A stretch of DNA of 64,000 nucleotides from Azolla caroliniana (Eukaryota > Plantae > Polypodiophyta), in contig JBHGNT010000012.1 in assembly GCA_043228905.1 (NCBI GenBank), forward strand, positions 5,890,001 through 5,954,000, in the 5' to 3' direction. A program made the position numbers and the translations under genes. Below, piece by piece: positions 7,011 through 49,906 of the stretch. Numbering within the stretch: the stretch's first letter is position 1; each line of letters starts with the position of its first letter. A model generated the notes under the pieces. That model searched no databases. It had not been told where the DNA came from and was given only the letters and a program-made list of their open reading frames with translations.

Positions 7011-9599
7011 TATTTTTATGGCTCAAAAGACTCGGCCATCTAAGCAAAGCCGGCATCATGCACCTATCCAAATCCGGCAACATTCCCAAACTATCCTTTT
7101 TGAACCATCAGTTTTGTGAGCAGTGTCAATACGGAAAGCAGGCGGCTACATCACACCTGACCAATGTGCGAGAGAGTCGAGCCCGCTCGATTGATTCATT
7201 CAAACATTTGTGGCCCCATACCACATCACTCTCTTGGTGGCATGTTGTATTTCATCACGTTCATTGATGACGCAACTCGGAAGATGTGGGCTTATTCGTC
7301 TCTAACAAAAGATCACGTTTTCACGATCTTCAAGGAATGGCTCTCAATGGTCGAAAATTAGACAGGCTAAAAGCTGAAGAGCCTTCGATCGAATAATGGG
7401 GGAGAGTATAAATTGGACGAATTCATCAAACTTTGACGACAACACGACATCAGACATGAATTTACGACTCCCCACAGTCTAGAGCAGAATGGCATTGACG
7501 AACACATGAATCATACAATTTAGGAACGAATTGTTGCTATGTTGCATCATTCTGGACTCTCGGATGGCTTTTGGGCCTAGGAATTACTCATAGTTGTGCA
7601 CATTATCAATATGTCGGCAAATAGGCCGAGTGGACTCAAAATTCCGCTCTGAATTGGAAAGAAACCAGACTATGGAAAGGTGTGGATATTCAGATGTGAG
7701 GCATATGCACTTGTGCCAAGAGAAAAACGCTGAAAACTCAAGCCATGGTCACAGAAATGTATTTCCCTAGGATATGTACTTCACGGGAATTTCGGCTATC
7801 GACTTTGGGTTTCCGAGACTCGTCAAGTTGTTCAAAGCTCAGACATGGTCTTCAACGAGTCTGAAATGCACATTGTCAAGTCAATCGAACAACCGATTGA
7901 ATTAAGGAGAGTAACTTTTTTGGTCTTGCCAACTCCTTTAGACAACCCAACACTACACGCAACAATGGCAACACGGCAAGCTACCTCCATGGAACATAGT
8001 ACGGCTACATCCAGTACTTCGGAACCAACTATCTCTAAGAGAAGCCCACGAAGTGATCCACAAGGTGGATTGGCTATTGAAGAAACAATCCTCAACCATG
8101 ATCCGACTAGTTCAGTCTTACCGCGTAGATCTGAAAGACTATATAGCAGCCACAAGAGAGATATTCTCTCGGCCTCTTCTTTATAGACGCCGGTGAACCG
8201 ACCACATATGAAGAAGCTTTGACATGTGCCTACACTACACACTTGCGACTTGCAATGGAATCCGAAATGAATTCCATCCAAAAAAATTAGAATTGGGACT
8301 TAGTGGAACTGCCAAAGAATCGATGTGCACTCCCATGCATATGGGTCTTCCAACTTAAAGAGACATTTGATTTGGCAAATCCTAAGTATACTTAGGCCAA
8401 ATTAGTTGCAAAGGGTTTCCAATAATAGTATAGGGTGGATTTCAACGAAATCTTTTCACCCGTGGTGAAAATGACTACCCTTTGGTTCTTACTTGGTAGT
8501 TGTTGCCGAGGACTTACAACTTCTTCAAATAGATGTTAAAACAACCTTCCTCCATGGTGATCTACACGAGGAAATCTAATATATGGAGCAACCAAAAGGA
8601 TTCACTAGCAAATAAATTCGGTTCCCTTTACCCACTATTTGCTCATCAAAAGGAACATCTTTTGGTTGTCACATACTAGCCTATGACATGCATTTGGCAT
8701 GGCCGTTAAAGCCCACATGTCACAAAATGGTGTGGAAATTCTTGTTGAGAATAACACGGAATATTGCTCGGCCACAACCGAGTCACGAATCACTTGTCGA
8801 TGAGAATCAAAACACAGTAATGGGAAGTAGGGAGTGAGCGCATGTACACACACATACAATAGAGAGTACATGGGATGTTTACGTTGTCGCGTTGTTACAC
8901 GCGTACGTGTAGAAAGGGGCGGGACCATGGGGGTCTTGGACCGAGGAGCGAGAGAGAGAGAGAGCGAGAGAGATAGAGAGACGGAGAGAGAGATTCACCG
9001 ACATGTAGGAGCGAGAGAGAGAGATATAGAACGTAACACTTAATTATAATGACAGAGATTACAAACACCGACAGTTACAACCGACAATGCGGCGACGGAC
9101 CCGACACGGGGACCCTACTCACGCACACCGACGATAGACACACGACTCAAAGAAACAAAAAGGGAAAGGGAGCGACTCTGCTAGAAGCACACGGGCTGTC
9201 CACGAAGCAGAGGCAGCGACCTCCCGACACCCGCAGAGAGCGACGATTCACGTCCAAGAGAGAGAGCTCCCTCTTCCGTTCTGCAGCAACGCTTCCCTTC
9301 CTCCTCACACGCGATGCCTGTTTTCCCTTGTCCTCCTCCCTTTATTCCCTGTCCCTCTGACCGGGATACACATAATCCCCCCCTAATAAATGCATGCGGC
9401 TTAGTATTTACGTCCACCGGTTTGTGTGCAAAATATCAAGTCACGCGTCCATCCGTGTAAGGGCCGGTTTACACGCTTTCTCTCCGATTCCGCCTATGGC
9501 CGGTTTTCTTCACGACATCCACCCCCACCAAACCGCGCATCCACCGGTATGCGCCAGAGACGGGTAGATATCGAAGAAACCCGGCCTCACTCGTTGCTC

Positions 9600-12500
9600 T
9601 CCGATTCTCCACCGGACCCGAACTGATCGTCGTTGTCGCTCCCGCTCGCAGGCTCCGGCTCGTCTTCGAACCGCTTTGATCCACTTTCCGGCTACCGGCA
9701 CCACTAACCGTGTCCCGTCAAGTTCCGCGAGGTGGTATGTGCCGTTGCTGTTCACGCTCGTCACCATGTAGGGCCCGAACCATCTCCTAGCAAACTTTCG
9801 CACCGCTTTTTGCTGATTGTCGAGGCTGCTATCGTATACCAAGACCCCGTCGCCTTCCTCGATCTTCTTTGGTCGCAACCGGTGCGTCCGGTTGAACCGG
9901 GTCTTGTTCCGCTCCCTTGCCGTTCGCAGCCTTTCCTTCGCCTGTATCACGTCCTTCGGCCTCCGCTCGAGTTGCCGAATCCGCACCACCAGCAACTCCT
10001 CCCAGCTCATTTCGTCCTTCCAATCTACCGCCGCCCACGAAGAAACCGTCCATTCCACCGGCATGATCGGCTTTTGTCCGTACATTAGCTCCGCCGGCAT
10101 AAACCCTGTCACCGAACTGTGCGTAGTCCGGTCCACCCATAGCGCGTAAGGAAGGAGTCGCGACCAATTCCCGACCTGCCCACCGCATTCACGCACCAAC
10201 GCCTTTACAATCGGTCCATGCTCACGTTCCACCTTTCCGTTCGCCTCCGGATTGTACGCCGTGGTGAGGGAGAGTTTGACGCCTAGCCGGTCGAACAACT
10301 CCTCGTCCTCCCGCGCATCCAGCTCTCCCCGTCCGCGACGATCCTCCCGACGCACCTGTACCGACACACTACTTCTTCGATCAGGAACCGGCATACCGCC
10401 GCGGTTGTCTTGCTTTGCAGTGCACGGCCTTCCACCTGGTTCATTAAGTCTTCCCGTGCAAGCACCAGGTATCGCATCTGTCCTACCCCCATCGACATCG
10501 TCACCAAGTCCACCATCCACTTGAAATGGACCGTAGGTGGGTAGGTCGGTCGTAGCTCGTCCCGATGTCGGACTACGGAGTGCATCTGATAATTGTCGCA
10601 AGTTGTTACGAACCGATGCACGTCCTAGTATAGCCCCGGCCACCAGTACTTCTCCTTCAGCTTCTCGAACGTGGCCCACGTTCCGCGGTGTCCGGGCCAT
10701 GGGCTCTCGTGGAATGCCGCCAGTAGTTTCCCCTGTTCTTCTTTCTTTGCCACTACTCGGAGTGGGATGCCGCTTCTCTTCTTTGGGTGTTTCCATATGC
10801 ACCCGTCCCGCAGGAAGAATCGGTACGCCTTCCTCCGTATCCGGCTCGTCTCCTCTCTCGCCCATGCTACGTCCGGCGTCATCATCCGTAGGAACCTCCC
10901 GATTTGGAGCCACTCCCCGTCGTACCTGCTTTCGTCAAATTCGTTAAGCGCCAGAGTGTTCCCTTTCCTCGTCGTTACGTTAGCCGACCCGAAGAAGTCC
11001 TCGCCGACTTCTTCGTCTTCCGAAACCATGTCGTCTTCGTCATTGAACCTTGCCCTCGAAAGCATGTCGTCCATGGCATTGTCCTTTCCGGAGATGTGCC
11101 GTATCTCCAGGTTCGGGGACTTAATGTACGCTATCCACCGGAGCATTGCTAGGTCCGGCGTCGCGCATCCGCAAACCATGCTGAGTATCGGCAGACAGTC
11201 CGTCTCGATAATCACCTCCGTCCTGATCAAATAATCCTTGTCGGCCTTGACTGCCGAAACGACACCCCAAAGTTCGCGCTTAACTTGGGCGTACCCTCGC
11301 TACCGCTCGCTCAATACCTTCGCCCCGAACCGGATCGGGAATCGTACGCCGCCCTTGTCCTCTTGACTGATTACCCACCCGATCCCGGTCGGGCTGGTGT
11401 CCACCGTTACGCAGATGGGAACATCCTTGCCGTAAACCGCTTTACGGAGAGTCGGCGCTGCCGTAAGCACCTCCTTTAGTCTTCGAACCGACTCCGTGTG
11501 CTCCGTCCTCCACTCAAAGCTACGCCCCTTTTTCAATAGTCTGTAGAGGGGTTCCGCGACATGTGCGTAGTGCGGGATCCAGATGTGGTAGAACGCGCAT
11601 GCCCCCAAGAACCTGCGGACCTCTGTGACTAACACGCAAACATTCCTCATCGCGGAGATGGCCTCTACCTTTGCTGGAGACGGTTTCCTACCGTAAGGCC
11701 CGCATAGGTGTTCGACCACCAAGATCTTCGACTGTTCGAAGGCTGACTTTTCCCCGGAGAAGGTGAGCCTCGATCGCTCTAGTCTCTGCAGCACCTTCTC
11801 GCAGTCATCGACGTGGTACGCCACGAAATTCCGACATCCGTCCGGCCCGATTTCCTCGTCCCTTTTCTCCACCGGGCATCCCTTGATCGGGATGTCTTCT
11901 AAGAACTTTGTTCATCGCGTTCACCATGTGAGCCACTGAGTTCGTCCCTCCTTGTGGCAGGGTACACATCCGCACTAGGCCGAGAGGAGTCCGCATCGTC
12001 GTAATGTCTCTGCTCTCCACGGCTAGTTGGAACTGATCGTACCCCGAGTACAGATCACCGACAGAATAGATCGACCTTCCAGCGAAGGCCTCCGTGAACT
12101 CGTCTATGGTCGGTCTGATCCCTGCATTACGGATGGTCACCTTGTTGACCGGTTGTAGGTCCTGGATGAAGCGCAACGTGCCGTTCTTCTTCGGCACCGT
12201 AAACCACCGATTCGAGTACATGGCACTCAACAGTTCGAGGATGCCCATCTCCACCTTTTGCTTTAGGAGCTCCATAAACTTCGGGATGTGAGCTCTTGGC
12301 ACCGGAATCGGCTTGAGATTCCACGGCACATGCGGTACCGTGAAGATCACCATCGGTTCGACAACTGTCGGGTCTACGCACCCGATCTCCTCCGGTGAGA
12401 ATGCGAAAGCCTTCCTGTGCCTCCCGAGCATTCTCCGAAACTGGTCGTCCTCCGCCGGTAGTAGGAAGCCACCCCCACCGACCTTGAGCACCCGTAGCGT

Positions 12501-15184
12501 TATGTTGGTGAACCGGTGCCCTATGTCAGCCGGATTTCATAAACTTGGGTCCGACGCGACCCCTTTTATCCGCACATCGCTGCCCTCCGGCAAGGGTGCC
12601 GCGACTGGCCTCACCTTCCGGTCCACAGTCTTGTATTTCGTATCCACGCGGGCCGTCCGATCCGACCCGATCCTTTCCCCGAAGTTTGCGATGACTTCGT
12701 ACATTCCCATTGACCCCACCGGAACGGTCCAGTCTTCCCTAAGGTCTTCACCGATGACCTTTCGTAGTTTGTCCAAGGTGTCGTCAAAAGAGACCGCCTC
12801 CACGGCGCCGCTGATGCCCTCGTCGACGAAGAGGACTCCGCATCCCCTGAGCCGCTCCTCCGCTCGCTTCCTCTCCCTGCCGCTGACGCTGGTTATAGTA
12901 CAACCTCCGATGTCGGAGAACCAAAATTTCCTACCTATGGTACAGGTCTTCTTTTGTACTATACCTTTGTGGGGTTCTTCCCGGGTGTCCGGACTATCGC
13001 GGCCCCACGCCTTGACAGCCCTCTCTAAAAATCCCCTTGGGTTTCGCTGCCGAGGGCCTCGCGGTTACGCTCGTGGTTTGGTCGCACCGTTAGGAACTGG
13101 ACCGAGTGACGCTCGTCTTGGCTCTTGACTCTTGCATAGGCTGAACCGTTGTCCAACACCTTAGTCTCCATCCGTGCCGCCGTGATATATGGCTCCCCTA
13201 GTATAACCGGATGCGAGGACGTCTCCTGCACGAAGAAGTGCTGGTCGATCTCGACATCGCCGATTTTCACCCGTACATTCAGACAGGCCCCATGTAGTTC
13301 TTCCGTGGCGCGCGTCGCTGCCCGTATCTTCCAGCCATGCTTGGTGTTGATCGGCCATTTACCCTTCTTGTAGAAATCCATGGACATCAGATTGATTTCG
13401 GATCCATGGTCTACCAACGCCACCACTGGTTCCAGAACGTTGTCGATCCGTACAGGGGTTTCCGTAGTCGCCCTGGCCCAATGTGGCTTCGTGTAGTGGC
13501 TCCCCGCCAGCTCATCTTCCAGGGCTCTGTCTTCCAAGTGCGTTGTCCGCACTTCCACCGGCTTCTCCGGTTCCGGCTCCGTCGAGAGCCTCTTCCGCTT
13601 CACCAAGTCTACGATAGAGTCATGGAACTCCCTCTTGGCGATTCCCAGCACCTCCCGCAACGACAACTCCACTTTACTGTCAAGGATTTGCTCTTCAAGG
13701 ACCTTCCGTAGGTCCGTTGCTCTCTAGATTTCGGTGCTCAACCGAAACCCCGCCTGCTTCTTCCCATCCGGCACGCCTAGGTTGCCAGCACAGGTTGGTT
13801 TCGGTCCGAACCGGGTCTCATACCTCGGGGGGCCAACCCCTCCGGCTTTTCCTGCCCGTTTGTCCTCCACAAGAACCTCGTAGTTCTGGCAAGCGGCTTC
13901 TACGAAGCCCGTTTTCTCTTTGACCGGATCGTCCCAACCGGTGACCTCCTGGATCCGTTGTTCCACGCGGTCCGCCTCTTCCTTCCTCAGCCGAACACCG
14001 GAGAGGCCTTCTAGCACTAGCGGCCAGAATCCGGAGTCCTTCGCCTTCCGGGTCTCATCAACCCCGACCCGAATTCCCGCCAACACTGAGTAGTTAACGG
14101 CTTTGACGTGCCGTGCCGCGGCCTCTTCCATCAACCTCTTCATTCCGCCGCGCCTCGTATTCAGTTCAAGGGCTCTCCGGGTCTCGCTCGCGTGCACCCG
14201 CCCATTCCAGAGGTACACCACGTTGGTCCTGAGCGCGTTGGCGAAATCCGCGCAATCCTTCCGAATGTGACCGATCGCGTCACACCACATGCACCGCTGC
14301 CCAGCTGGCGGCCTCCGGTCGCGAGGTTGTTCACCGCTGTCTCTTCGGGCCTGTGCGATCTACAGGTCGCGCACCATCTGTGTTAGCTCCTCCAGAGCCA
14401 CTCCTCCAGATGGGCCTCTGACCACGTCGTTCGATGCCGACCCCGACTCCGGCCAGATTCGGGTCTCTTCCTTCCTCCCAGTCGGCACCGAAATCGGCTC
14501 CTCGAGCCTCCTCCCTGGGACCGGCCCCGACCCCGACGTGCTTCCGTCGCTCCAATCGCACCGTTTGTCGAAACGGCTGCAAACCCGTTTTACCACGGCC
14601 CAGTCCATCGTGAGCCCTTCGTCCATTTCCAATAGGGGCCCCACCTTTTCCTTGTCGAGTGCATCCACCGACTTGACAAACAGCAGTACTCGACTTGTTT
14701 CGAGCACCGTCCAGTCCAGCGTCGACAGCCACGCGAACCGTTTTTCGAACTCCTGGAGGAGCACCGACGTGTTCCTCCCTTTTTCGGGGCTTTCCACCCA
14801 CGCCATGAAGTCCTGCCTCGACAGCGGGAGCGAGTCGTCAAACCCGTACTTCTTGAGGAGTTGCAGCTCGAACTCCTCCCAAGTCTGGCATCCGGCCAAC
14901 ACCTCGAGCACCTCCGCATGGATGCCCGGCATCACCACCCGAGGGAATCCGGACAGCCGCATGTCCACCGAGATATCCCTCATGATCATTTCGGCCCGGT
15001 AAGCCTCCAAATAACGTGTGGCATCTTTCCCGCCGAAACGGCCTATAGAGTCGACAATCGATTCAATGGCTCTGTCGAGGGTACCCGTTCCCTCACGAGC
15101 GCACAACAGCCGGTCGACGGCCACCGCCATTGCCTCTGCTAGCTCCGATCCCCTCATCTTTCGACTCCTTTTCCGCCCTTTCAT
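9600..15184 (-). pseudogene. G1 gag-protease (15184-13025) and RT-RNaseH-integrase (13034-~9600), disrupted; RT catalytic region partly deleted near 11897
   Basis: CMWCDAIGHIRKDC, ALVDHGSEINLM, YSNRWFTVPKKNG..DLYSGYDQ..LPQGGTNS, VDTSPTGIG, FHESPWPGHRG..C..CQ-like, NGKVER, WFGPY. Confidence 0.9.
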
Positions 15185-18100
15185 GTCGGGTTCACCAAAT
15201 ATGTTGCGTTGTTACGCGCGTACGTGTAGAAAGGGGCAGGACCACGGGGGTCTTGGACAGAGGAGCGAGAGAGAGAGAGCGAGAGAGATAGAGAGACGGA
15301 GAGAGAGATTCACCGACACGTAGGAGCGAGAGAGAGAGATATAGAACGTAACACTTAATTATAATGACAGAGATTACAAACACCAACAGTTACAACCGAC
15401 AGAGCGGCGATGGACCTGTTGAGATACAAGCTCAACATCGGCCGGATCGGCTGAAGAAGCCGAGAAGCAGATCGGTTGGGACCGATCGGTTAGGCCGAGT
15501 ACATAAACCGGGAGGTCGTTAGGAAAGATATTCCGTGAGGAATATATTTGGGAGTTAGTGTAGGAGCTCTTAAATGAGCATTGAAGTATTGTTAGTACTT
15601 CGGTCAATCCTTCTAGGGCTTGTATAAAAGTGTTCACTGAGCACGTCTTATACACAGAGATTGAGTATTATTGTTGAATATAGTTTTTTGTGTTTCTCTC
15701 TCTGTCTCTCCCGCGTATACCGTGTAAGCCTAAGCTCTCCATTGAACCTGAGTTTCCTTCCTCTGTTCTGTCTTCATACTTGCTTCCGCACGCTACTTTC
15801 TACATGGTATCAGAGCGCGAGGGTTGAGAACCTCTCTGCAGCCGACACAGCTTAACGAAGAAGAACAAGAAGAACGATGGATAGAGGCATGGCGAGGTCG
15901 CTTCCAACAGAGAAGCTCGACAGAACCAACTACGCTTCTTGGTCCTACAAGATGCACCAGTACCTGCTCGGGCACGACTACTGGAGTTATGTCGAAGGAG
16001 CTAATGATGCGGCACCCGAATCGACACACAGAGACTTCCCGTTGTGGGACCAATCAGCGAGCAGGGTACTATACTGCTTCGCGTCGTGTGTGGGCGAACA
16101 ACTATTGAGCTATGTTCGGGATGCAAAGACGCCGAAGGGTGCGTGGGAAAATCTAAAGAAGATTTTCGCCGCAAGCACCACAGCCAGGAAGCTTCAGCTC
16201 CAACAGGAGTTGAGCAACCTACGACAACGCGATTTGTCGGTGGCGGACTATACCTCGAAGATCAAGGATATCTGCGACTCCCTTGCCTCCATAGAGGTGA
16301 ACATCGAGGAGAGCGAGATGGTCCAGATCTGTCTCAGAGGTTTGGCGTCGAAGTTCGGAGCGTTCTGAACGGCTGTGTGTACTTGGGAGAATACGCCGTC
16401 CTTTTTCGACTTATAGTCGATGCTCCTGGTAGAGGAGAACCACGCGGGTGCGTCGACAAGCACGCACACCGACAACAGAATGTTGTACACGGAGGGAGAT
16501 AGGCCCCATGGTCGTGGCGGACGAGGCGAGTTGGTACGCAATGGAAGCGGCCGACGTGATCAAGGAAGAAGGCACCGAAGTGATGCCGACAACAACTCTG
16601 GACCCTCCGGAAACAGGGGGAGTCGAAGCAATGAGAACCGGCAAGGGAAGTCCATCGCGGAGTGCTGGTACTGTGGCAAGAAAGGCCACAAGGAAAGTGA
16701 GTGCTGGAAGAAGTGCGCCGATTCGGAGAGAAATGGCTCCAGAAATACCGACAAGGGAAATCGGCAGCGATCGCACTACGTTGAAGACTCCGGGAGAGCC
16801 GGAGAAGGGTCTGTCTTCGTGACGAGACACGAAGCAAACTCAATGAAACAGAGCACCCCGAGATCGGATGAGGTGTGGTACGTAGACTCCGGCGCGTCAA
16901 ACCACATGACGAGCCATAAGGAGTGGTTCTCGTACCTTGAAAAACCGATACAACCTAGAGTAGTCGCAACAGGAGACGACACTCCGCATCCAATCGCGAA
17001 TGTCGAAGAAGTTCCCCTTAGCCATGTTGGGCAGAAAGGGAAACTCAAGAACGTGTTGCACGTTCCGACAATCACGAAGAACTTGGTCTCGATCGGACAG
17101 ATCGTCGACCAAGGGATGGAGGTTCGGTTTACACACCTCGGGTGCTTCATTGAGGAAGAAGGCCATGTGATTGCGCAAGGGCGCAGAGACGGGAGGATGT
17201 TCATCCTCGATTCCACTGACGGCGGCACCGCAATGTTCGCAAAGGACAAAAGACCAAGTCGGACATCGACTTGTGGCACAAGCGGATAGGCCACGTCAAC
17301 TATCAGCGGCTTCAAGATCTGCAAACGAAACAGGTAGTGTTCGGATTGCCCAAATTTAGTGGCCGAAAGGCACAAATTTGTGAAGCCTGCCAGCCCGGGA
17401 AGCAACACCGACTTCCCTTCCCCAACGAGCGAAACCGGAGCCGGAACAAGCTCAACCTTATACACTCCGATGTATGGGGGCCGGCACAAAACGTTAGTCT
17501 TGGCGGGAGCCGATATTTCGTCTCCTTCATCGACGACCACACGCGGCACACGTGGATCTACCTCATTGAGAGGAAGAGCGAAGTCTTCGACTGTTTCCGG
17601 GACCTCAAAGGGTTCGTGGAAGCCGAAACGGGATGAAAGATCAAGTGCCTGCGGTCGGATGGCGGGAAAGTGTACTTTTCCAGTCAATTCAACGGTTGTC
17701 TACAACAAATGGGAATTCGGCGCGAATTCAGTTGTAGATACACGCCAGAGCAGAACGGCGTGGCCGAGAGAAAGAATTGGTCGATTGTGGAAGCGGCACG
17801 GGCAATGCTGGAGGAGAAGAGCTTGCCCAAGTTCTATTGGGCCGAGGCGGTAAGGACCGCGGTATACATCCAGAACTAGATCGGAGACAAAGTGTCGGCG
17901 CACGAGCTATATTTCGGAACGAAGCCGAACTTGCGACACTTGAGGGTGTTCGGTAGCATTGCGTATGTGCATGTACCGAAGGAGAAAAGGAGGAAGTTGG
18001 ACGCAAAGGCCGAGAAATGCATCTTGGTCGGTTACTCGAACGAGTAGAAGGGTTACTCGGACAAGTGCTATAACCCTTGCACCAAACAAGCACGTGTCAG

Positions 18101-20262
18101 CCACGACGTTGTGTTTGACGAGTCTGCGTCCTGGTACCAGCCCCTGACTACGAACCTTGACTCCAATCCGAGCTCTGACGATGAGGTTAGCGAGGCCGAG
18201 ATGCCTCCGGATGAGCCCGAAATCGAGACCCACGAAGAGAGTCCGATTTCACTCCGGTTAAGTGGACCGATTGGACGACTGAGTCGGTATGACCAGTCCG
18301 ATGAAGAGCCGGCGAGTAGTGGAGACTCGGCCGTGCATTCCCCGCGCAGGAAGCTGAGGAGACGGCTTACGCGCAAAGAGAAAGGGAAGAAGAAGGTGTC
18401 GGATTCCGGCACGGAAAGGAACGAGTCAGACCGACGCGAGTCCGACTCCAAGGAAACCGGTGACGGGTCCTTAAAGGTGAAGACGGCGTCGACCGAGAAG
18501 GCCTCGACATCGGCTAATGTGAGATTACGCCGATCTACCCGCCAGAAGAACCCAGTTGTGCGGTTCGGATACGAGTACATGACCCGTGTAGCGGAAGTGC
18601 GTGAGCCGGAGAGCTACGTAGAAGCGGCTAAACACGCGAATTGGCGCGCCGTGATGGAGGAAGAGATGCACGCATTGGTGGAGAACGAGACCTGGGAACT
18701 GGTTGACGCACCGAAGGGGGTAAAACCGATCGGGTGTAGATGGGTGTAGAAAGTCAAGTACAACACCGATGGCTCGGTCAACCGGTACAAGGCTTGGCTA
18801 GTGGCAAAGGACTACGCGCAGAAACACGGCATCGACTACGATGAGACGTTTGCGTCGGTCCCGAAAATGACGACCGTCCGTGTTTTGCTCGCAGTAGCCG
18901 CGGCCAAGGGGTGGCGTGGCACCTACATCAGATGGATGTAAAGAATGTGTTCCTGCAAGGTGACCTTGAGGAACAGGTGTACATGGTATAGGCCCCAGGA
19001 TTTCACTCCGGAACGAACTCCTCGGCAGTATGCCGACCGAAGAAGTCCCTTTACGGACTGAAGCAAGCCCCGCGTGCCTGGAACATGAAGATCACGCAGC
19101 AACTGCGTCGGATGGGCTTCGTCACATCAAAATCGGACTCTTCCCTGTTCATCCGGAAAGGTCGACTTGGACCGGTTAGTATTTTACTATATGTTGATGA
19201 CTTGGTCATCACCGGTGCCGACCTAAGTGAAATCAACCGCGTGAAGCTCCAGCTTGCGGCATCGTTTGACATGAAGGATCTGGGGGACCTTCATTACTTC
19301 CTCAAGATCGAAGTGATCCGTACCCCCGAAGGCATATTGATCAGCCAACGTCATTACGTGCTGAGTATGCTCTTCAAACTCGGGATGGCCGACTGTAAGT
19401 CCGTCTCGACTCCTCTGGACAGAACCATCAAGCTTTGTCCCGATACGGGAAAGGTATGCGACCCGACGAGGTTCCGACAAATTGTCGGAAGCCTCATATA
19501 CTTGACCATCACCCGACCCGACCTCAGTTACCCGGTCGGGGTGATCAGTTAGTTCATGGCGCGACCTACCGAGGAGCACCTTCAGTGTGCGCAACGCGTA
19601 CTGCGGTGTCGTGAAGAAAACCGTCCACAAGCGGAATCGGTGCACCGGAGCGTAGGAACCGGCTCTTCATATATGTGCGCCTTATGTTGTACATAGAAGA
19701 TCCTCGGTAGGTAAGAAGTTAATAGGAAACGGCTCCTTCCTTGCCTATAAAAGGAGGGAGACAAGGAGGGGAGGGGGGATCGCGAAATAAGAGAGGACGA
19801 AGTGTTGTCGGATTGTGGGCCGAAGGCTTCTCTCTCTTCCAAACTCCATAGCTTCTTTCTGTGCAGGTTTCGGGAGGCTCGCGCTGCTCTGAGGAATGCC
19901 CGAGTGCTTCCGGCAGCACCTCCAACTTACTTCCTTCTTTCTGTGCGTTTACGAACAGGCATCGACATCTGTTCGCCGGCCTGTTCGGTTGTAACCGACT
20001 TCGTGTTTTTGTTGTTTGTCTCTGTTAATATTCACATACATTCCTTCGTGTCTCTCTGTGTTGGTTTCCCGCTTGCGTCTTCGTGTCGAAGGGCCGTGTC
20101 CCTGTGGATCTACGCTCGCACCTAGTGGACCTCTTTCCTTCTCCTTTCTCTCTTGCTCTTTGATACAAGACCCCCGAGGTCCCGCCTCATTCCACGCATC
20201 CGCGAGGAATACCTCGACACCTTGGTGAACCCCACGTGAAAGAGGCGGCAGAAGAGTAGAAG

Positions 20263-22342
20263 ATGAAAGGGTCGGATCTTGCGGAGGCCATGGCTTCGGC
20301 CGTGGATCGGATATTGAGCGCACGCAAGGGCTCCGGCGCCCTCGACAGAGCCATTGAGGCGGTCGTCGGTACGATCGGCCGGTTCAGCGGAAAGGATGCC
20401 ACGAAGTATTTGGCGTCCTACGGGGCAGAAATGCTGATGCGGGACATTTTGGAAGAGAGGCGTCTTGCCGGGTTCCCTCGAGTGGCGATGCCGAGCATCC
20501 ATGCAGAGGTGCTCGAGGTGCGGGCGGAGAGTCGTACCTGGGAGGAGTTCGAAGGCCGACTCCTAGAAAAATACGGGCTGGACGATGCGCTCCGGCTTTC
20601 GAAACGGGACTTCATGGAATGGGTGGAGTCCCCCGGCAAGGGAAGAAATGCGTCGGCACTCCTCTGGGAGTTCGAAGAACGCTTTGCGCGCCTTTCGGCG
20701 CTTGACCGAACCGTTCTGGATACGAGCCGGGTCCTACTGTTCGTCAAGTCGGTGGACGAGCGGGACCGGGATCAAGTCGGCTCCTTGCTGGAAACCGAAG
20801 ATGGGCTGACGACCGACTGGGTTGCGGTTAAGAGAGTCTGTGGCCGTTTCGACAAACGGCGAGAATGGGCTGACAACGGGGCGGCTGGTGCAGGCTCTAT
20901 CACAGCAAGGAGGCTTGAACCGGCACCGCAAGGGCAAAGGGAAGAAACCCGGGAATGGCTCGAAACCGGCATGGTCAGTGGCTCGTCCGGAGGAGCAGCG
21001 CTAGACGAGTTGACGCGGGCGATAAAGGATCTCCAGATCGTCCAGACTCGAAGGGAAGGCGGCGAACAGGTGCATGTGGTGCGACGAGGTCGGCCACATC
21101 CGGAAGGACTGCTGCGATTTCGCAGAAGCGTTGAGGAACCGGGTGGTGTACCTGTGGGAAGGCCGGGTGCACGCCGGCGACACCAGAAGGGCCCTAAACC
21201 GAAACGATGGGCGAGGAGGTATGAAGAGACTGATGGAAGAGGCAGCGGCCCGACACGTGGAGGCCATCCACTACTCGGCGTTGGCCGGTATTCGGGTCGG
21301 GGGCAGCGAGGCCCGAAAGGAGACCAAGGACGGGTTCTGGTCTGCAATGCTGGAAGGCCTTGCTAGCGCACGGCTAAGGAAAGATGAAACGAACCGCGCT
21401 GAAAGACGGGTCCGGGAAATAACCGGGTGGAGCGATCCGGTCGAGGAGAAGACGGGCTTCGTAGAAGCCGCCTGCCGGAACTACGAGGCTCTGGTAGAAG
21501 ACAAACGAGTGGGGAAAGCCGGAGCGGCCGGGCCCTCACAACGGTACGAGACCCGATTCGGGCAACGACGGAACGATGCCGGTGGGTCCAGCTCGCAAGA
21601 TAACCCTAGGAAGGGCGGATACCGACTGGGGACGGAAATAGAAAGGACTACGGACCTACGAAAGGTCCTAGAAGAACGGATCCTCGACAGCAAAGTGGAG
21701 CTGTCATTGCGAGAGGTGCTAGGGATCGCAAAGAAGGAGTTCCACGACTCCATTGTGGACCTGGTGAAGCGGAAGAGGCTGTCGACGGAGACGGAACCGG
21801 AAAGACCGGTGGAGGTGCGGACGACGCACATCGACGACATGGCGCTGGAAGATGAGTGGGCAGAGAGCCACTATTCAAGGCCGCACTGGGCCCGAGCGAC
21901 CACGGAAACCCCGGTAAAGATCGGAGATGTTCAGGAACCGGTGGTGGCATTGGTGGACTACAGTTCGGAAATAAACCTGATGTCCATGGACTTCTATAAG
22001 AAGGGGAAGTGGCCAATCAACACCAAGCACGGGTGGAAGATACGAGCGGCGACGCGTGCCACCGAGGAACTGCACGGGGCCTGCCCGAACGTGCGAGTCA
22101 AGATTGGCGACGTCAAGATTGACCAGCACTTCTTCATACAGGAGACGTCCTCGCACCCGGTCATATTAGGTGAACCATACATCACGGCGGCGCGGATGGA
22201 GACCAAGATGCTAGACAACGGTTTGGCCTACGCGAGGGTCAAAAGCCAGGACGGGTGCCATTCGGTCCAATTTCTGACGGTGCGGCCGAACCACGAGAGA
22301 AACCGCGAATCCCTCGGTGGCGAGAACCGGGAGGATTTTTAG
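20263..22342 (+). pseudogene. G2 Gag-protease ORF (one frameshifting deletion near 21070)
   Basis: ORFs 20263- and 21074-22342; CMWCDEVGHIRKDC knuckle; aspartic protease ALVDYSSEINLM...VILGEPY; ends ..REDF TAG. Confidence 0.9.
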
Positions 22343-25300
22343 AGAGGGCTGCCAAGGCGTGGGGCCGAGACAGCCCGGACACTCGGAAAAGACCCCACGA
22401 CTGTACGATAGGTGGGAAATTTTGCTTCTCCAACAACGGAGGGTGTATGGTAGTCGGCATCGTCGGCCGAGAAAGGACAAGGGCGGAAGTGCGACTTCGA
22501 GTGTGCGGAGTTCTCGGCCCGGACGAGGAAATTAGCGGAGCCGTGGAGGCGGTCTCCTTCGACGACACCTTGGGAATGCTGAGGAAGGTAGCCGGAGAAG
22601 ACCTTAGCGAAGACCGGACGATACCGGTATGTTCCGAAGAGATGTACGAAGTCATAGCGAACTTCAGTCGGGGGCTCGGGTCGGATCGGACGGCCCGAGT
22701 TAGCACGAAGTACAAGACTGTGAACCGGAAGGTAAGGCCAGTCGCAGCACCCTTGCCGGAGGGCAGCGAGTCCCGAATTAGAGGGGTTGCGTCGGACCCC
22801 AGTTTACGAGATCCGGCCTGCATAGGACACACCTTCACCGACGGAACGCTCCGGGAGCTCAAGATCGGTGGGGGCGGGTTCCTACTACCAGCGGAGGAAG
22901 ACCGGTTTTGGAGAATGTTCGGAAGGCACGGGAAAGCCTTCGCATTTTCGCCGGAAGAGATCGGGTGCGTAGACCCGACAATCGTGGAGCCGATGGTGAT
23001 ATTCACGGTACCGCATGTGCCGTGGAATCTCAAGCCGATTCCGGTACCGAGAGCTCACATCCCGAAGTTGATGGAGCTATTGAGGCAAAAAGTAGATATG
23101 GGCATTCTTGAACCGTCGAGTGCCCATACTCGAACCGATGGTTTACCGTACCGAAGAAAAACGGACATTGCGCTTCATTCAAGACCTGCAGCCGGTCAAC
23201 AGAGTGATCATTCGGAACGCAGGAATTGGACCGACCATAGACGAGTTCGCGGAGGCCTTCGCCGGAAGGTCGATTTACTTGGTTGGTGATCTGTACTCAG
23301 GGTACGACCAGTTCCAGCTAGCCGTGGAGAGTAGAGACATTACGACGATGCGAACTCCCCTCGGCCTAGTGCGAATGTGTACCCTGCCACAAGGAGGGAC
23401 CAACTCGGTGACCCACATGGTGAATGCAATGAACAAAGTACTGAGGGATTGCATCCCGGACATCACCATGCCGTTTCTAGACGACATCCCTATCAAGGGG
23501 TGCCTGGTGGAGGAGAAGGACGAGACAGTCGGGCCGGACGGATGCCGGCGATTCGTGGCAACACACATCGACGACTACGAGAAGGTGCTACAAAGGCTAG
23601 AGGATGCGAGGCTCACCTTCTCCGGGGAGAAATCGGCCTTTGGGCAATCGGAAATCCTGGTGGTCGGACACCTATGTGGACCCTATGGCCGGAAGCCGTC
23701 TCCGGCAAAGGTAGAAGCCATCTCCGCGATGAAGACCGACTGTAGCTCGATTACAGAAGTTCGGAGGTTCCTGGGGGCCTGCGCGTTCTACCACATATGG
23801 ATCCCGCATTACGCCCACGTTGCGGAGCCGCTATACGGGTTGCTGAAGAAAGGGCGAAAATTCGAGTGGCGAGACGAGCACATGGAGTCGATCCGGAAGC
23901 TGAAGGAAGCTCTTGCGGCAGCACCGACGCTCCAGAAGGCTGTCTACGAGAAGGGTACCCCAATATACATAATGGTGGATACGAGTCTGACCGGGATCGG
24001 ATGGGTCGTCAACCAAGAAGACGGGGACGGCATTCGGTTCCCGATCCGATTCGGCGCGAAGGTCCTCAGTAGGCGACAGCGAGGGTACGCCCAGGTTAAA
24101 CGCGAACTCTGGGGTATCATTTCGGCGGTAAAGGCCGACAAAGACTACCTGATCGGGACGGAAGTGATTATCGAGACGGATTGCCTGCCAATTCTCGGCA
24201 TGGTTTCCGGATGCGCGACACCAGACCTGGCGATGCTCAGGTGGATAGCGTACATCAAGTCCCTGGACCCGGAAATACGGCACATTTCCGGAAAGGACAA
24301 CGCCATGGCCGACATGCTTTCGAGGGCGAGGTTTGATGATGAGGGCGGCATGGTTTCGGAGGACGAAGAAGTCGGCGTGGACTTCTTCGAGGCGGCGTAC
24401 GTGACGACCGATGGGACGAGCACTCCGGCACTTAACGACTTCGATGAGAGCAAGTACGACGGCGAGTGGCTCCAGATCGGTGGATTTTTTAGCACAATGA
24501 CGCTGAATGCGTCATGGACGAAGGACGAGGCCAACCGGATCCGGAAGAAAGCTTACCGATTCTTTCTCCGGGACGGATACTTATGGAAGCACCCGAAGAA
24601 GAGGAACGGCGTCCCGCTCCGGGTGGTGGCGATGAAGGAAGAACAGGAGGAGCTGCTGACGGCCTACCACGACAGCCCTTGGGCTGGACACCGTGGAACG
24701 TGGGCCACGTTCGAGAAGATAAAGGGGAAGTACTGGTGGCCGGGACTGTACCGGGACGTGCATCGGTTCGTGACAACTTGCGAGAGCGGTCAGATGCACT
24801 CCGTAGTCCGACATCGGGACGAGCTTCACCCTACGTACCCGCCGACCATCCACTTCAAATGGATGGTAGATCTGGTGTTGAAGCTGATGGGAGTAGGACA
24901 GATGCGGTACCTGGTCCTGGCTCGGGAAGATCTGACGAACCAGGTAGAAGGCCGAGCCCTTCAAAACATAACGACCGCGGCCGTATGTCGGTTCCTGATT
25001 GAGGACGTGATATGCCGATACGGGTGCGTCGGGAAGATAGTGGCTGATCGCGGGGAGTTGGACGCCGAAGAGGCCGAGGAGCTATTCGACCGGCTAGGAG
25101 TCAAGCTCTCGCTCACCATTGCATACAATCCGGAGGCGAATGGGAAGGTGGAGCGCGGACACGGACCGATCGTCAAGGCGTTAGTTCGGGCATGCGGAGG
25201 TCAAGTCGGGAACTGGCCGCGGCTGTTGCCTTACGCGTTGTGGGCGGACCGAACTACGCACAGTTCGGTAACCGGATTCATGCCGGCAGAGCTCATGTTT

Positions 25301-25792
25301 GGGCAGAAGCCGATCATGCCGATGGAACGTACGATCTCCTCCTGGGCAACCATGGACTGGAGAGATGAGATGAGCCGGGAGGAACTGTTGACGGCGCGCA
25401 TACGAAGACCGGAGGACGTGGAGCAGGCTGCGGAAAAGCTTCGGGTGGCAAGGACCAGGAACAAAGCCCGGTTCGACCGGACGCACCGGCTCCGACCGAA
25501 GAAGATCGAGGAAGGCGACTGGGTGCTAGTCTACGACAGCAGCCTCGACAACCAGCACCGAGCGACACGGAAGTTCGCAAGAAGGTGGTTCGGGCCTTAC
25601 GTGGTACAAAGCGCCAACGACAACGAGACGTACCATCTGGCAGAACTCGACGGTACGAGAATGGCGATACCGGTAGCTGGGAAGCGGATCAAAGCGTTCA
25701 AGAAGCGTCACGACAACGAGCCGGATCCGGTTGACCTGGACCGGGACGACGAACGATCCGAAACTGAAGAAGAACCGACGGGCGGGGAATAA
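22333..25792 (+). pseudogene. G2 Pol: linker, RT, RNase H and integrase with GPY motif, no chromodomain; local frameshifts near 23120-23165
   Basis: ORFs 22255-23289 and 23108-25792; PFLDDIPIKG, HDSPWAGHRG, WMVDLV, IVADRGE, NGKVERGH, RRWFGPY. Confidence 0.9.
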
Positions 25793-28791
25793 AGGCTGGA
25801 CCGGTTTTCTCCGTCCCAACTCAATTTGGCGCATGCCGGTGGATGTGCGGTTAGGTGGGGGCGGATGTCGTGAAGAAAACCGTCCACAACCGGATTCGGT
25901 GCACCGGAGCGTAGGAACCGGCTCTTCATATACGTGCGCCTTATGTTGTACATAGAAGATCCTTGGTAGGTAGGAAGTTAATAGGAAACGGCTCCTTCCT
26001 TGCCTATAAAAGGAGGGAGACAAGTATGGGAGGGGGGATCGCAAAATAAGAGAGGACGAAGTGCTGTCGGATTGTGGGCCGAAGGCTTCTCTCTCTTCCA
26101 AACTCCATAGCTTCTTTCTGTGCAGGTTTCGGGAGGCTCGCGCTGCTCTGAGGAATGCCCGAGTGCTTCCGGCAGCACCTCCAACTTACTTCCTTCTTTC
26201 TGTGCGTTTACGAATAGGCATCAGCATCTGTTCGCCGGCCTGTTCGGTTGTAACCGACTTCGTGTTTTTGTTGTTTGTCTCTGTTAATATTCACATACAT
26301 TCCTTCGTGTCTCTCTGTGTTGGTTTCCCGCTCGCGTCTTTGTGTCGAAGGGTCGTGTCCCTGTGGATCTACGCTCGCACCTAGTGGACCTCTTTCCTTC
26401 TCCTTTCTCTCTTGCTCTTCGGTACAAGACCCCCGAGGTCCCGCCTCATTCCACGCATCCGCGAGGAATACCTCGACAGCGGTACGTAAGTGGCACTAAG
26501 GACCGAGGACTGATATATCGGACCGGTGCAGCCGTGCAGCTAGTCGGCTACACCGATGTTGATTGGGCTGGCAACGCCGCCGATCGCCGATCCACGTCTG
26601 GATACGCGTTCTCCCTCGGGAGTGCCGCGATCGCGTGGAGCAGTAAGAAGCAGCCGACAGTTGCACTGTCGAGCACCGAAGCTGAGTACCGAGGAGCGGC
26701 TGTCGCGACATGCGAAGCCATATGGTTGAAGCGGCTACTTAAGGACCTGCAAGAGGTGTCAGATCCGACGACGATCTACTGCGACAACCTCAGCAGCATC
26801 CAACTCGCGAAAAACCCCATTTTCCACGCACGGACCAAGCACATTGAGGTGAACGTCCTTTCCGGTGAAGTCGAACTTCAGTACGTTCTGACGGATCGGC
26901 AGACTGCGGACATCTTCACAAAGCCTCTTGGTCTGGACAAGTTGCGGCAATTCTCGGGTGTGCTCGGGTTGCGTCACCTCGACGTGCCGAACTTGAGGGG
27001 GAGAACAGTCCCGAACGACCAAGCAAGGCAGCAAGAAAGGAGCGGTGACCATGACACCGAGTCGGCTGACTCGTTTGTTGACTCGGTTGAAGACGGATCG
27101 GCTGAAGAAGCGGAGGGCGGACCCGCGGAAAAGTTTGGAAGAGGATAGAAGGGGAGCAACCAAAGGAGAGAGCTGAAGTCAACCACGCATAGGGGAGATG
27201 ACGCCATCGAGGGCGAGAAGACCGAAGACGAGTTGGAGACAGCCAACTCGGACGAGAGCGAAGACCGATCAGAGGAAGCCGAGTCGGTTCGGATGTTTGA
27301 TTCAAACACGCTGAATCAACCGAGGCCCAAGCGGAAGAAAAGGCAGTAGAAGAAGCGTCAACACCGCAACAACAGAAGAGCTGATGAGGGCCACATGAGC
27401 AGACAAGCCGACCGGAAGGGTCGAAGCGCGCGGAGTCGAACAGGTCGAGGAGCGCGAGCGAGGCGAGAAGCCAGGAGGAACCGGTGCTGTGAAGATCCCG
27501 AAGAGCCTCAAGTTGAGCTTGAGGGGGAGTGTTGAGAGACAAGCTCAACATCAGCCGAATCGGTTGAAGAAGCCGAGAACCAGATCGGTTGGGACCGATC
27601 GGTTAGGCCGAGTACATAAACCGGGAGGTCGTTAGGAAAGATATTCCGTGAGGAATATATTTGGGAGTTAGTGTAGGAGCTCTTAAATGAGCATTGAAGT
27701 ACTGTCAGTACTTCGGTCAGTCCTTCTAGGGCTTGTATAAAAGTGTTCATTGAGCACGTCTTATACACAGAGATTGAGTATTATTGTTGAATATAGTTTC
27801 TTGTGTTTCTCTCTCTGTCTCTCCCGCGTATACTATGTAAGCCTAAGCTCTCCATTGAACCTGAGTTTCCTTCCTCTGTTCTGTCTTCATACTTGCTTCC
27901 GCACGCTACTTTCTACAGGACCCGACACGGGGACCCTACTCACGCACATTGACGATAGACACACGACTCAAAGAAACAAAAAGGGAAAGGGAGCGACTCT
28001 GCTGGAAGCACACGGGCTGTCCACGAAGTAGAGGCAGCGACCTCCCGACACCCACAGAGAGCGATGATTCGCGTCCAAGAGAGAGAGCTCCCTCTTCCGT
28101 TCTGCAGCAACGCTTCCCTTCCTCCTCGCGCGCGATGCCTGTTTTCCCTTGTCCTCCTCCCTTTATTCCTTGTCCCTCTGACCGGGATACACATAATCCC
28201 CCCCTAATAAATGCGTGCGGCTTAGTATTTACGTCCACCGGTTCGTGTGCAAAATATCAAGTCACGCGTCCATCCGTGTAATGGCCGGTTTACGCGCTTT
28301 CTCTCTGATTCTCCCTATGGCTGGTTTTCTTCACGACAACGTGGAAAACCCTAAATGGTAAAACCCATGGGAGTCCACAGGCTCCTAACTATTACTATAT
28401 AAGAAAGGTACAAACAGAGACTCAGAGGCAACGGCCCCGAGCTCTATATCTTCCCCAGTCGGCGGTTACAACAGAGTATCACTATGTATCTCACTCTCAC
28501 TCTCTCTCTCTCTGTACAACAGTTATGCACATACAACAATATGACAACTACATCATCATCTGATTGCCCTAAGTCATATTTATATTATATGAACTTAGGG
28601 CTATTTACAAATATAGCCTCAATAGGCTTACTCAAAAAACATATTTACACATATGTCTTCTCATCCTGTTCTTACCGGGTCCATCCGATCCTTTTTCCGG
28701 ATCTCTTCCGGTTCTCATTGGGTCCTCTTTATTCATCACTAGATCCCATCCGGAGGGACCGATTTCCCAACAATCTCCCCCTTCACTCCGG

Positions 28792-29946
28792 TGTCGTGAA
28801 GATTTTCGGCAATGGTGTGAAAATCGCATAAAACATATGAAATTGAGTATGAATCATTTAAAACAATAATAGTGAAAATACTATTTTAAATAAGTTTAAT
28901 ATCTTAGTACAAAAAGATGGAGGTTTTCAAGAGCTTTCGAATGCACTTTACTACATAAGAAACGTACATCTAAGTCTCAAGTTATGTGGGTAGGAAGTTT
29001 GCAAAGGAAAAGAGAAAGATAAAATTGTGAGATATCCTACATAGACAGGACAAATAAGGATCTTACCATATATAAGGCAGAGCAAAAGCTATTATCTTTG
29101 TGTCTATGTATGGAGCATAGAGAGGTCAAGGTGACTTGAACTAAGCTTATTGGATGAGTGGGTGTGGCTTAGCTACTTGTAAAAGTTTTTGGCCAACCAA
29201 AACCGGCGGCCGGTGACCGGCAAGCAACTCAGGATGCGGACTGGGCCGGACCAAACAAATGCAAATCGGACGGATCGGTCGGGTCTGTTGATTGCGGTGC
29301 ATGGTGTCTTGTGCATAAAAGAAAAGGATGTAAGCAAGACTCGAACTTTGCACCTCCAAGATAGAAAACAATAAGCTTACCATTAAGCCAAATCATTTCT
29401 TTCGGGATTATATTTTTTTCATTATAACTTTACATGTAAATTCTCATATTAGAGCTTGATTGAATGACATGTGATGCATGAGCGCCAAATGGCAAACATC
29501 CATCACATGCATTCCATGCATTGTATGCATGTCTTGTACCCTCACATGCATCATATGCATGGGAGCATCTATAAAAGGGTGGATGAAAAAGATCAAAGGG
29601 GGAGCTATGTATTAATCAAGAAATTAAAAGTAAGAAATTCGTTATCCAATTGATGTATCAATTTTGTTCTTCTAATCTAAAGTCAAGAGTTCAATCTTAA
29701 TCTCTCTCAATCTAAAGTCAAGAGTTCAATCTTAATCTCTCTCAATCTAAAGTCAACCGTTCTATCTTATCTCAATCTTAATCTCTCTCAATCTAAAGTC
29801 AAGCATTCTATCTTATCTCAATCTCTCTCTCTCGATCTATCTTTAATCCTTTCTTGCTAAAGCTAGTGCGTACTTTGAGTCCTTCCTGTCCAGAACACCA
29901 GTGGTTCCGCCTCACGATCCGCACGTAATGACTGATCTTCACGACA
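28792..29946 (+). mobile_element. Solo LTR (1155 bp) related to the G clade, inserted 8 bp from the PPT of C
   Basis: 12-bp terminal inverted repeat TGTCGTGAAGAT/ATCTTCACGACA; flanks CCGG / TCGG (4-bp TSD, one C>T); 3' end resembles the G-clade LTR end (TCCAGAACACCAGTGGTTCCGCC). Confidence 0.8.
29672..29825 (+). repeat. ~35-bp tandem repeat within the solo LTR
   Basis: AATCTAAAGTCAAGAGTTCAATCTTAATCTCTCTC, about 4 copies with variants. Confidence 0.85.
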
Positions 29947-30187
29947 TCGGCATGGGATGTCTTGTCAGCCCGATCCGCTTTCAGCATGCGTTCAGCTTAT
30001 CGATTGTCAAGACCTTGGTCAGCATGTCGACCCGTTCTCCTCCGTGTGGATCTTCATCAACACGAACTCTTGATCTTCTACTCTCTCCCGGATCCAATGG
30101 TACCTCTCCTGGATATGTTTCGTCTGGGAATGGTAGGCTGCATTCTTTGCAAGGTGGATGGCACTTTGACTATCGCAGTAGAGCCGG

Positions 30188-37506: not shown

Positions 37507-37738
37507 TTATAAATAAGGATCTACCACCCATCCCAAACCTAAATTGGTTCAACGCCATTTTGTAGCCTACTCTTTGTAATCCATTTTACACTTCAATATA
37601 ATAATTCTCTTTCTATCTCTTTTTCTCTCTTTCTCTCTCTCAGTCTTGACAGTTTGAACCAATTTTTTCCTTTCATCTCTTCGTCTTCCACAAATTCTAA
37701 CAAGTTCTCTTCTTCCTTCTCCTCTCCTCTCGTAAGCT

Positions 37739-42371: not shown

Positions 42372-42828
42372 TGTCATGATAACACTCACATCATGCATCA
42401 AAAGGATCATGACACTCACATTATGACTCGAAAGGATTTGAACCCACAACCTTGTTGTACACATGTCAAATCCTTAACCATTGTATTAATATTCTTATAT
42501 GTATAGTCTCTAGAATATGAAATCTAATATCATAGGAATATTCTATATTACTCTAAATTCTAGAATGACCTAGAATATTCTAGAGTGTTCTATACCACTA
42601 GAACCTTCTAGAATACTCTAGAGATCTTCTAGATTACTCTACATTCTAGGATAACCTTGAATATTCTAGAGTGTTCTCTATTACTTAAGGATCTACCACC
42701 CATCCCAAACCTAAATTGGTTCAACGCCATTTTGTAGCCTACTCTTTGTAATCCATTTTACGCGTCTATATAATAATTCTCTTTCTATCTCTTTTTCTCT
42801 CTTTCTCTCTCTCAGTGTTGACACTGTG

Positions 42829-46836: not shown

Positions 46837-46872
<36 letters not shown>

Positions 46873-48309: not shown

Positions 48310-48720
48310 TGTTGGGAATATGTCCCTCTACTGGGAGGAAGAACCGACTGAACAGAAAGCCGACAATCGATGACAAGGAAGATCCGACTGTTCAGAAAGC
48401 CGACAATTGAAGAGTCGAAAACAATGAGTCGATTGTTTGAAGATTCGACTATTCTTATTATAGTCATAATAATGATGATGATGTTAGGAAACAGGTATCT
48501 CGGATGGGGAGAGAGAGGAGTCGAGTTGATGAGGGACTCGGCTGATGCCGATAGGCCTTGGCCGAAACCAGAATTGTGTATATAGCCAACTCGGGAGACT
48601 ATAATTGTAAATAGTCTAAGTGTGGGCCCCATGAGGGCTACGTATGTAAATAGCCAGAAAGTTGTGTAAGTACATATAAAACTAGAGCAAACTTTAATAG
48701 TGATGAACAGTAGTTGTGCA

Positions 48721-48752
<32 letters not shown>

Positions 48753-49906
48753 AGTGAGAGCCACGCCATAGCTGTGTGTGTAACAGCAAACGTGAAGAGC
48801 CCCGTGTGGCTGATGCACTCGTGAGAGAGTGTTGTAATCTTCTCTGTATTGTATATCCACTATTTGTATAGTGAAGTTCTGTTCACCCGTGGTTTTTCCC
48901 GTTTTAGGGTTTCCACGTAAATCTCTGTGTACATCTTGTTTATCTTGTCTTCCTGGCATTTTGTGTGATTTGTATTTCAGCGTTGTCATAGTGTAATTCA
49001 CACACTACGGGAAAATTGCATTTTTGTTCCTCCGGATGGGACAAGGAGGACCCAGTAAGGAGGACCCAGTGAGAACTGGATGAAGGAGGAACCGGTAAGG
49101 AGACCCGGTGAGAGCTAGATGAAGGATGGAATCGGTAAGGAGGAACCGGTGAGAACCGGATGAAGGATGGAATCGGCAAGGAGGAACCGGTAAGGAAACC
49201 TGGTAAGAACTGGATCAAGCAAAACCAGCAAGAGCCGGATAAAGAAGGCCGGTGAGAGTCTCTCACCGGATGAAGAGACAAATTTGTAAATAGAAGAAAA
49301 GATTGTTGCATGCATAGGGCAGGATTCGAACCCTGTTCCTCCATGTTAACAATTTTTAAGCCTTACCACTATACTAACATATTATGAATTTTAAAGTTAT
49401 ACTAAACTTTATCCCATGTAAATATTCTAGATATGCATGGTACAAAAGTTATTCATGCATACACACTCGAGTTAAAAGAAAAGATGGGATAGAAAGCTAA
49501 TCATGCACATGCAATGTGCATGAAAACTAAAGTTAGGAAAAGCATGATGCTTGCATGTGATAAACTTAGACTCTTCCAACACTATATAAGGAAGAGAGAA
49601 AGATGTATAGGTGTTGTTGATTTTTATAAGGTTTGAATAATATAAAATAATCGTGGGATTCACGATTTTGCCATCTATTTCTCTCTTACAATCCAAGTAT
49701 CAATTAGTACACTATACTCGTGGGATTCACGAGTTTCATATCTTCTTCTTGCAATCTCTTCCTAACTAACATTATCTCATATTCTTCTTTCTCCTAGTCC
49801 AAAACCCCAGCGGTTCCCACCCAACTCACGCAAACGATCCGGCACTGAAAGGCACGACAACGTGTAATCTATTTATTGTGATTTATTCCACAACAATTTC
49901 TTGACA
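48310..49906 (+). mobile_element. Copia-type solo LTR in the RNase H of E, itself interrupted at 48984-49859
   Basis: TGTTGGG...TTGACA, TSD TTTTT; excision restores IAKNFVHHSRTKH of E; (GA)n and GTGGTTTTTCCC..GGGTTTCCACGT motif shared with the C and E LTRs. Confidence 0.8.
48984..49859 (+). mobile_element. Second G-clade-like solo LTR (876 bp) with purine-rich tandem repeats at 49040-49250
   Basis: TGTCAT...CACGACA, flanks GCGT / ACGT (4-bp TSD, one mismatch), 3' motif GTCCAAAACCCCAGCGGTTCC like the G-clade LTR end. Confidence 0.65.

What the first reader, a model, noticed from the sequence alone, without database searches (positions are those of the whole stretch)
8881..49863. A Gypsy clade that makes 4-bp TSDs always centred on a CG dinucleotide
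Seen: all five insertions of the TGTCG...CGACA clade have 4-bp TSDs of form nCGn. G1 ACGT/ACGT (8881, 28339), G2 GCGG/GCGG (19603, 26479), G3 CCGG/CCGG (30184, 37094), solo LTR CCGG/TCGG (28788, 29947), solo LTR GCGT/ACGT (48980, 49860). Every other element with both ends (ATTCT, GGACC, CTGTG, TATAA, TTTTT, TATCC) has a 5-bp TSD with no CG. Two of the targets lie in CG-poor LTR sequence. Known: most plant LTR elements make 5-bp TSDs with weak sequence bias, and yeast Ylt1 makes 4-bp TSDs. Inference: this integrase has no chromodomain and may select CpG, perhaps methylated CpG, which would steer it into silenced repeats without reading histones.
Basis: partly seen in the sequence, partly recalled or inferred. 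Interest (0 to 1): 0.85.

Follow-up and report, generated by a model that had tools for sequence, protein, structure and literature searches.

The report
Plant retrotransposons that insert at CG
All five insertions of this plant jumping-gene family sit in four-base duplications centred on CG, but that habit is already published for the moss Phygy lineage, which these elements likely belong to, and whether the enzyme senses methylation is untested.

Summary
All 10 TSD copies have CG at positions 2-3, the duplication is 4 bp, and local chance is about 1e-7. It extends beyond the window: 19 of 24 LTR-genome junctions in 80 related loci are NCGN, and 3 more are NCAN, the CpG-decay form. It is not new. 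Neumann et al. 2019 (PMC6317226) list the moss lineage Phygy as 186 elements, 4-bp TSD (100%), NCGN, mostly tRNA-Trp primer, no extra domain. Ginger1 transposons also target CCGG/CCGT. These elements show no chromodomain, second RNase H or extra ORF, and relatives of 7.3-8.8 kb overlap Phygy's size range. The tRNA-Trp call is from recall, and no Phygy sequence was available for a tree. CG is chosen over other bendable steps (19 CG, 3 CA, 0 TA, 0 TG), so the integrase likely reads the bases. Nothing here tests methyl-CpG sensing. The scan noted NCGN TSDs before, in another, likely fungal, genome (e1-10582392). Verdict: likely a new member of a known kind, probably in a fern.

The parts
8881..8884 (.). 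G1 TSD copy ACGT, inside the 3' LTR of a Copia element
   Evidence: single ACGT in the paralogous LTR
8885..9517 (-). G1 3' LTR (633 bp), with a purine tract next to it at about 9518-9531
9518..15201 (-). G1 internal region: degraded gag-pro-RT-RH-IN
15181..15197 (-). G1 primer-binding site (tRNA-Trp by recall)
15202..28338 (-). G1 5' LTR, split by a Copia insertion (15417-27917, TSD GGACC) that in turn holds G2
28339..28342 (.). G1 TSD copy ACGT
19603..19606 (.). G2 TSD copy GCGG, inside a Copia RT coding region
19607..26478 (+). G2 element, 6872 bp; LTRs 19607-20219 and 25866-26478 (97.2% identical); PBS 20223-20239; purine tract just before 25866
23096..25792 (+). G2 RT-RH-IN open frame (898 aa, P0001): zinc finger, D592-D651-E686, GPY motif, acidic tail, no chromodomain; Glu654 aligns with PFV Ala188
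26479..26482 (.). G2 TSD copy GCGG
28788..29950 (+). solo LTR 1 (28792-29946, 1155 bp) with TSD CCGG/TCGG; its ends match the LTRs of PBS-bearing relatives L019, L028, L029
30184..37097 (-). G3 element (30188-37093, 6906 bp) with TSD CCGG/CCGG; LTRs 30188-30885 and 36404-37093 (97.1% identical); PBS 36381-36397
48980..49863 (+). solo LTR 2 (48984-49859, 876 bp) with TSD GCGT/ACGT, inside a Copia-type LTR; shares the clade's U5 motif; no linked coding region found

Best explanation
These are non-chromovirus Ty3/gypsy retrotransposons, likely of the Phygy lineage, with 4-bp target duplications centred on CG, and their integrase likely recognises the CG bases directly whether or not they are methylated. 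Shown: LTR pairs, a conserved primer-binding site, a purine tract, RT-RH-IN order, no chromodomain hit, and NCGN at both ends. Inferred from the foamy-virus model (PMC4422553): the intasome cuts with a 4-bp stagger and kinks the target at the central pyrimidine-purine step. Inferred from my counts: it accepts CG and rejects the equally bendable TA, TG and CA, so base contacts add to bendability. Candidate contacts, untested: the acidic residue at the PFV Ala188 position and the conserved loop before the GPY motif. Predicted consequence: insertions drift towards CG-rich young elements with no need to read histones or methyl groups.
For: Window: 5 of 5 insertions, chance 1.3e-7. Related loci: 19 of 24 junctions NCGN, 9 of 11 at 5' ends and 10 of 13 at 3' ends, which fixes a 4-bp centre; background CG 0.039-0.040; CG peaks only at outward offset 2 (16 of the first 20). 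Central step 19 CG, 3 CA, 1 CT, 1 CC against background CG 0.040, CA 0.076, TG 0.063, TA 0.072. Other copies of the G2 family: loose ends after 26478 have a majority starting ACGT in 11 (X1) and 10 (X5) contigs. Phygy: 4 bp (100%), NCGN, tRNA-Trp 81%, 7656-9968 bp, no extra domain. Relatives measure 7264-8821 bp with two overlapping ORFs filling the internal region. No chromodomain, second RNase H or methyl-binding family. Named homologues lie in liverworts and a fern. High-information TSD motifs are known in Drosophila gypsy and Idefix clades, and local base choice by PFV and HIV-1 is largely independent of chromatin. D-R-G-[E/D] is present in 116 of 118 aligned relatives.
Against: No Physcomitrella Phygy sequence could be put in the tree: the REXdb FASTA and element table were too large to read, and no listed homologue was named Physcomitrium. 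G1-G3 measure 6.9 kb, below Phygy's published range. The tRNA-Trp assignment is recalled, and tool checks did not confirm it. 5 of 24 junctions are not NCGN. The 24 junctions are single-ended and come from collapsed assemblies: L011 and L019 have unmatched flanks at their two ends. The loose-end majorities have low agreement (0.55, 0.48) and 9 rows were not shown. In PFV, Ala188 contacts bases outside the central step, so Glu654 may not explain the CG. No result separates CG from methyl-CG.
Confidence: 0.75

Rival explanations
1. The integrase prefers methylated CpG, which would steer insertions into silenced repeats without a chromodomain.
For: All 5 window insertions sit in other retroelements. 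Nine of the 23 flanks measured have CpG o/e under 0.5, a sign of past methylation. Empty-site paralogues of the solo1 target include the decayed form CCAG. Phygy domains are reported enriched at centromeres in the liverwort Apopellia (passages).
Against: The window is almost all repeats, so nesting is expected. Many flanks are CG-rich (o/e 0.8-1.5). No methyl-binding family was found. Decayed TSDs show methylation at some time, not a preference at insertion. No methylation data were available.
Confidence: 0.12
2. The elements form a separate lineage, sister to Phygy or closer to fungal Ylt1-like elements, that shares the NCGN habit by descent from a deeper ancestor.
For: Window copies are shorter than Phygy. 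Phygy was defined as specific to P. patens. Fungal homologues exist (Smittium 39-41%; Atlas look-alikes in Basidiomycota and Oomycota). An unreviewed note reports NCGN TSDs in a likely fungal genome.
Against: TSD length, TSD motif, lack of extra domains and relatives' sizes match Phygy. Phygy is already reported in a liverwort. The nearest named relatives are land-plant proteins at about 50-70% identity.
Confidence: 0.2
3. The motif reflects DNA bendability alone: any flexible pyrimidine-purine step would do.
For: 4-bp integrases such as PFV favour a central pyrimidine-purine step. 22 of 24 central steps are of that class.
Against: TA, TG and CA together are five times commoner than CG in the flanks, yet give 0, 0 and 3 of 24.
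Confidence: 0.03
4. Chance, mis-drawn boundaries or ascertainment by the reader.
For: Only five sites, picked after the fact; two TSD pairs are imperfect.
Against: Boundaries are fixed by LTR pairs, empty sites hold one 4-mer, and independent loci repeat the motif.
Confidence: 0.01

Closest known systems
Phygy (non-chromovirus|Phygy, REXdb; Neumann et al. 2019, PMC6317226; passages, sections 9 and 13 and supplementary file 5 read)
   Same: 4-bp TSD with NCGN motif; no chromodomain, second RNase H or extra ORF; polyprotein fills the internal region; PBS likely tRNA-Trp (recalled); relatives' sizes overlap 7656-9968 bp
   Different: Host is likely a fern, not Physcomitrella; window copies are 6.9 kb; placement in a tree with Phygy references not tested
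Ginger1 DNA transposons (Bao, Kapitonov, Jurka 2010, PMC2836005; passages read)
   Same: Gypsy-type integrase with GPY/F motif, TGTNR ends, 4-bp TSD CCGG (75%) or CCGT/ACGG (24%)
   Different: Ginger1 are animal DNA transposons with inverted repeats and no RT. Here the outer TSD bases are looser (ACGT, ACGC, CCGC, GCGG also occur)
Selgy and TatI (REXdb)
   Same: Non-chromovirus elements of non-seed plants with 4-bp TSDs; TatI also uses tRNA-Trp
   Different: No NCGN motif is listed for either; Selgy is about 5 kb with tRNA-Ala; TatI carries an archaeal-type RNase H between protease and RT, not detected here
Fungal Ylt1-like Gypsy lineage (Novikova et al. 2010, PMC2864245; passages read)
   Same: Non-chromovirus; fungal homologues found at about 40% identity
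   Different: No Ylt1 sequence was compared, and no TSD motif for Ylt1 appeared in the passages read
Prototype foamy virus intasome (Serrao et al. 2015, PMC4422553; passages read)
   Same: 4-bp stagger and flexible central pyrimidine-purine step; the integrase core aligns at E 5e-15
   Different: PFV's preference is weak and not CG-specific; it has Ala188 where this clade has Glu or Asp

Membership tests
Ty3/gypsy LTR retrotransposon | LTR pair with TG...CA ends, PBS, purine tract, RT-RH-IN order | tested here: met
Phygy | 4-bp TSD | tested here: met
   5 of 5 window sites; empty sites hold one 4-mer
Phygy | NCGN target motif | tested here: met
   10 of 10 window 4-mers; 19 of 24 junctions in related loci
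Phygy | No chromodomain, second RNase H or extra ORF; polyprotein spans the internal region | tested here: met
   the window's own chromovirus does hit Chromo
Phygy | PBS complementary to tRNA-Trp (81% of members) | tested here: inconclusive
   One conserved PBS in G1-G3 and relatives. The match to tRNA-Trp is recalled; no tRNA gene was retrieved
Phygy | Element size 7656-9968 bp | tested here: inconclusive
   G1-G3 are 6872-6948 bp; five relatives are 7264-8821 bp, four of them inside the range; the difference is LTR length
Phygy | RT/RH/INT phylogeny groups with P. patens Phygy | not testable with these tools
   REXdb FASTA too large; no named Physcomitrium homologue listed; tree without references
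Chromovirus | Chromodomain at the integrase C-terminus; chromovirus RT clade | tested here: not met
   No Chromo hit; separated from the window's chromovirus by a branch with SH-aLRT 100 in a quick tree
TatI | Archaeal-type RNase H between protease and RT | tested here: not met
   The 295-aa stretch before RT in relative L018 has no Pfam or PDB RNase H hit; Atlas look-alikes are RT fragments or unnamed
Selgy | About 5 kb (4432-6724 bp), tRNA-Ala PBS, no NCGN motif listed | tested here: not met
   Sizes 6.9-8.8 kb and NCGN present
Ginger1 | DNA transposon with 40-270 bp inverted repeats and no RT | tested here: not met
   G1-G3 encode RT and have direct LTRs; solo1's ends match LTRs of PBS-bearing elements

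The most novel reading that the evidence does not exclude
A cross-kingdom integrase lineage (plant Phygy-like elements, fungal relatives, Ginger1) reads 5-methyl-CpG directly in the target-capture complex, through a clade-specific acidic residue and C-terminal loop, and so homes to silenced repeats and centromeres without a chromodomain.
Probability: 0.1. Interest if true: 0.75.

Novelty: new member of a known kind. Interest (0 to 1): 0.24.

Why it matters
The TSD rule is published, so the discovery value is low. What this adds is modest. A Phygy-like NCGN lineage is high-copy and recently active in another non-seed plant, likely a fern (LTR pairs 95-97% identical), with named relatives in liverworts and Adiantum. 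The choice is for CG itself, not for any bendable step. A conserved acidic residue at the target-contacting position gives a starting point for mechanism. Neumann et al. call Phygy the one plant lineage with a target motif, and my 10 literature searches found no mechanism for it (one search returned only that paper for NCGN). If methyl-CG sensing were shown, it would be a histone-independent route into heterochromatin, and a CG-specific integrase could be a useful tool.

Tried and rejected
No whole genome is held, so no paired genome-wide TSD set could be built. Relatives were not found in viral contigs. Genome contigs gave 4 short stray contigs; the two examined (L112, L115) gave no usable junction. 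tRNA check: 31 viral matches to the PBS complement held no tRNA; the genome-contig pattern found nothing; the string occurs in 38 papers, the 20 listed being nearly all plant small-RNA studies (listing only); the one miR894/Trp paper was uninformative. One search had a short-seed bug and was repeated. L076 was dropped from the 21 flank rows because it is a purine-tract junction; 4 junctions were added from BLAST. The tree is a quick tree of 48 rows, with 5 candidates dropped by the region filter; it has no Phygy, Selgy or Ylt1 reference. The single-sequence structure job had not finished, so there is no model and no fold search. Ylt1 TSD sequences were not in the passages or supplement hits seen. 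GingerRoot (PMC6839031, passages) has 6-bp GC-rich TSDs with no motif and was set aside. PMC7466625 (passages) gave no TSD data. The search for Ginger1 + Gmr1 + TSD returned nothing. Reading solo1 as an inverted-repeat DNA element was rejected, because its ends match LTRs next to a PBS or purine tract.

Full report
Anatomy. The window is a nest of LTR retrotransposons. A minus-strand Copia element (8743-47151, TSD ATTCT) holds G1 in its 3' LTR, and solo LTR 1, G3 and a chromovirus (37194-42823, TSD CTGTG, Chromo hit) in its interior. A second Copia (15417-27917, TSD GGACC) splits G1's 5' LTR, and G2 sits in that Copia's RT region. Solo LTR 2 lies in another Copia-type LTR. G1, G2 and G3 are 6948, 6872 and 6906 bp, with LTR pairs 95-97% identical. 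They are about 76-80% alike inside and share one primer-binding site and purine tract.
Noticed in passing
window 48305-49912: The Copia-type LTR that hosts solo2 probably ends at ...CCACAACA (about 49895), followed by ATTTC, so its TSD is not a clean TTTTT.
   Followed up: partly
24 junctions in L003-L067: In element orientation position 1 is A 13, C 9, T 2, G 0 and position 4 is T 12, C 7, G 4, A 1; ACGC/CCGC occur and GCGT/GCGG do not. This hints at an asymmetric target, but window G2 is GCGG.
   Followed up: partly
window 25055-25057 (P0001 Glu654): Acidic residue at the PFV Ala188 position in 116 of 118 relatives, where retroviruses carry small neutral residues.
   Followed up: partly
window 8881, 46689, 47631, about 48931: G1's target ACGT lies in a motif (TTTACGTGGAAA) conserved in several Copia LTRs of the window, so those LTRs offer a recurring landing site.
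   Followed up: no
L026:186-11295: LTR-internal-LTR-internal-LTR tandem arrangement with two primer sites; real tandem or assembly collapse.
   Followed up: no
L018:4216-5100; window about 22174-23165: A long stretch between the frameshift and RT with no Pfam hit; Atlas look-alikes come from oomycete and basidiomycete clusters.
   Followed up: partly
window 28792-28803 and 29935-29946: Solo1 has a 12-bp terminal inverted repeat, longer than in G1-G3.
   Followed up: partly
L018, L019, L029: The first open frame starts within a few bases of the 5' LTR end and runs through the primer-binding site, stop to stop.
   Followed up: no
L112-L115; P0297: Relatives of this eukaryotic element appear on short contigs in bacterial genome records, probably contamination.
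   Followed up: no
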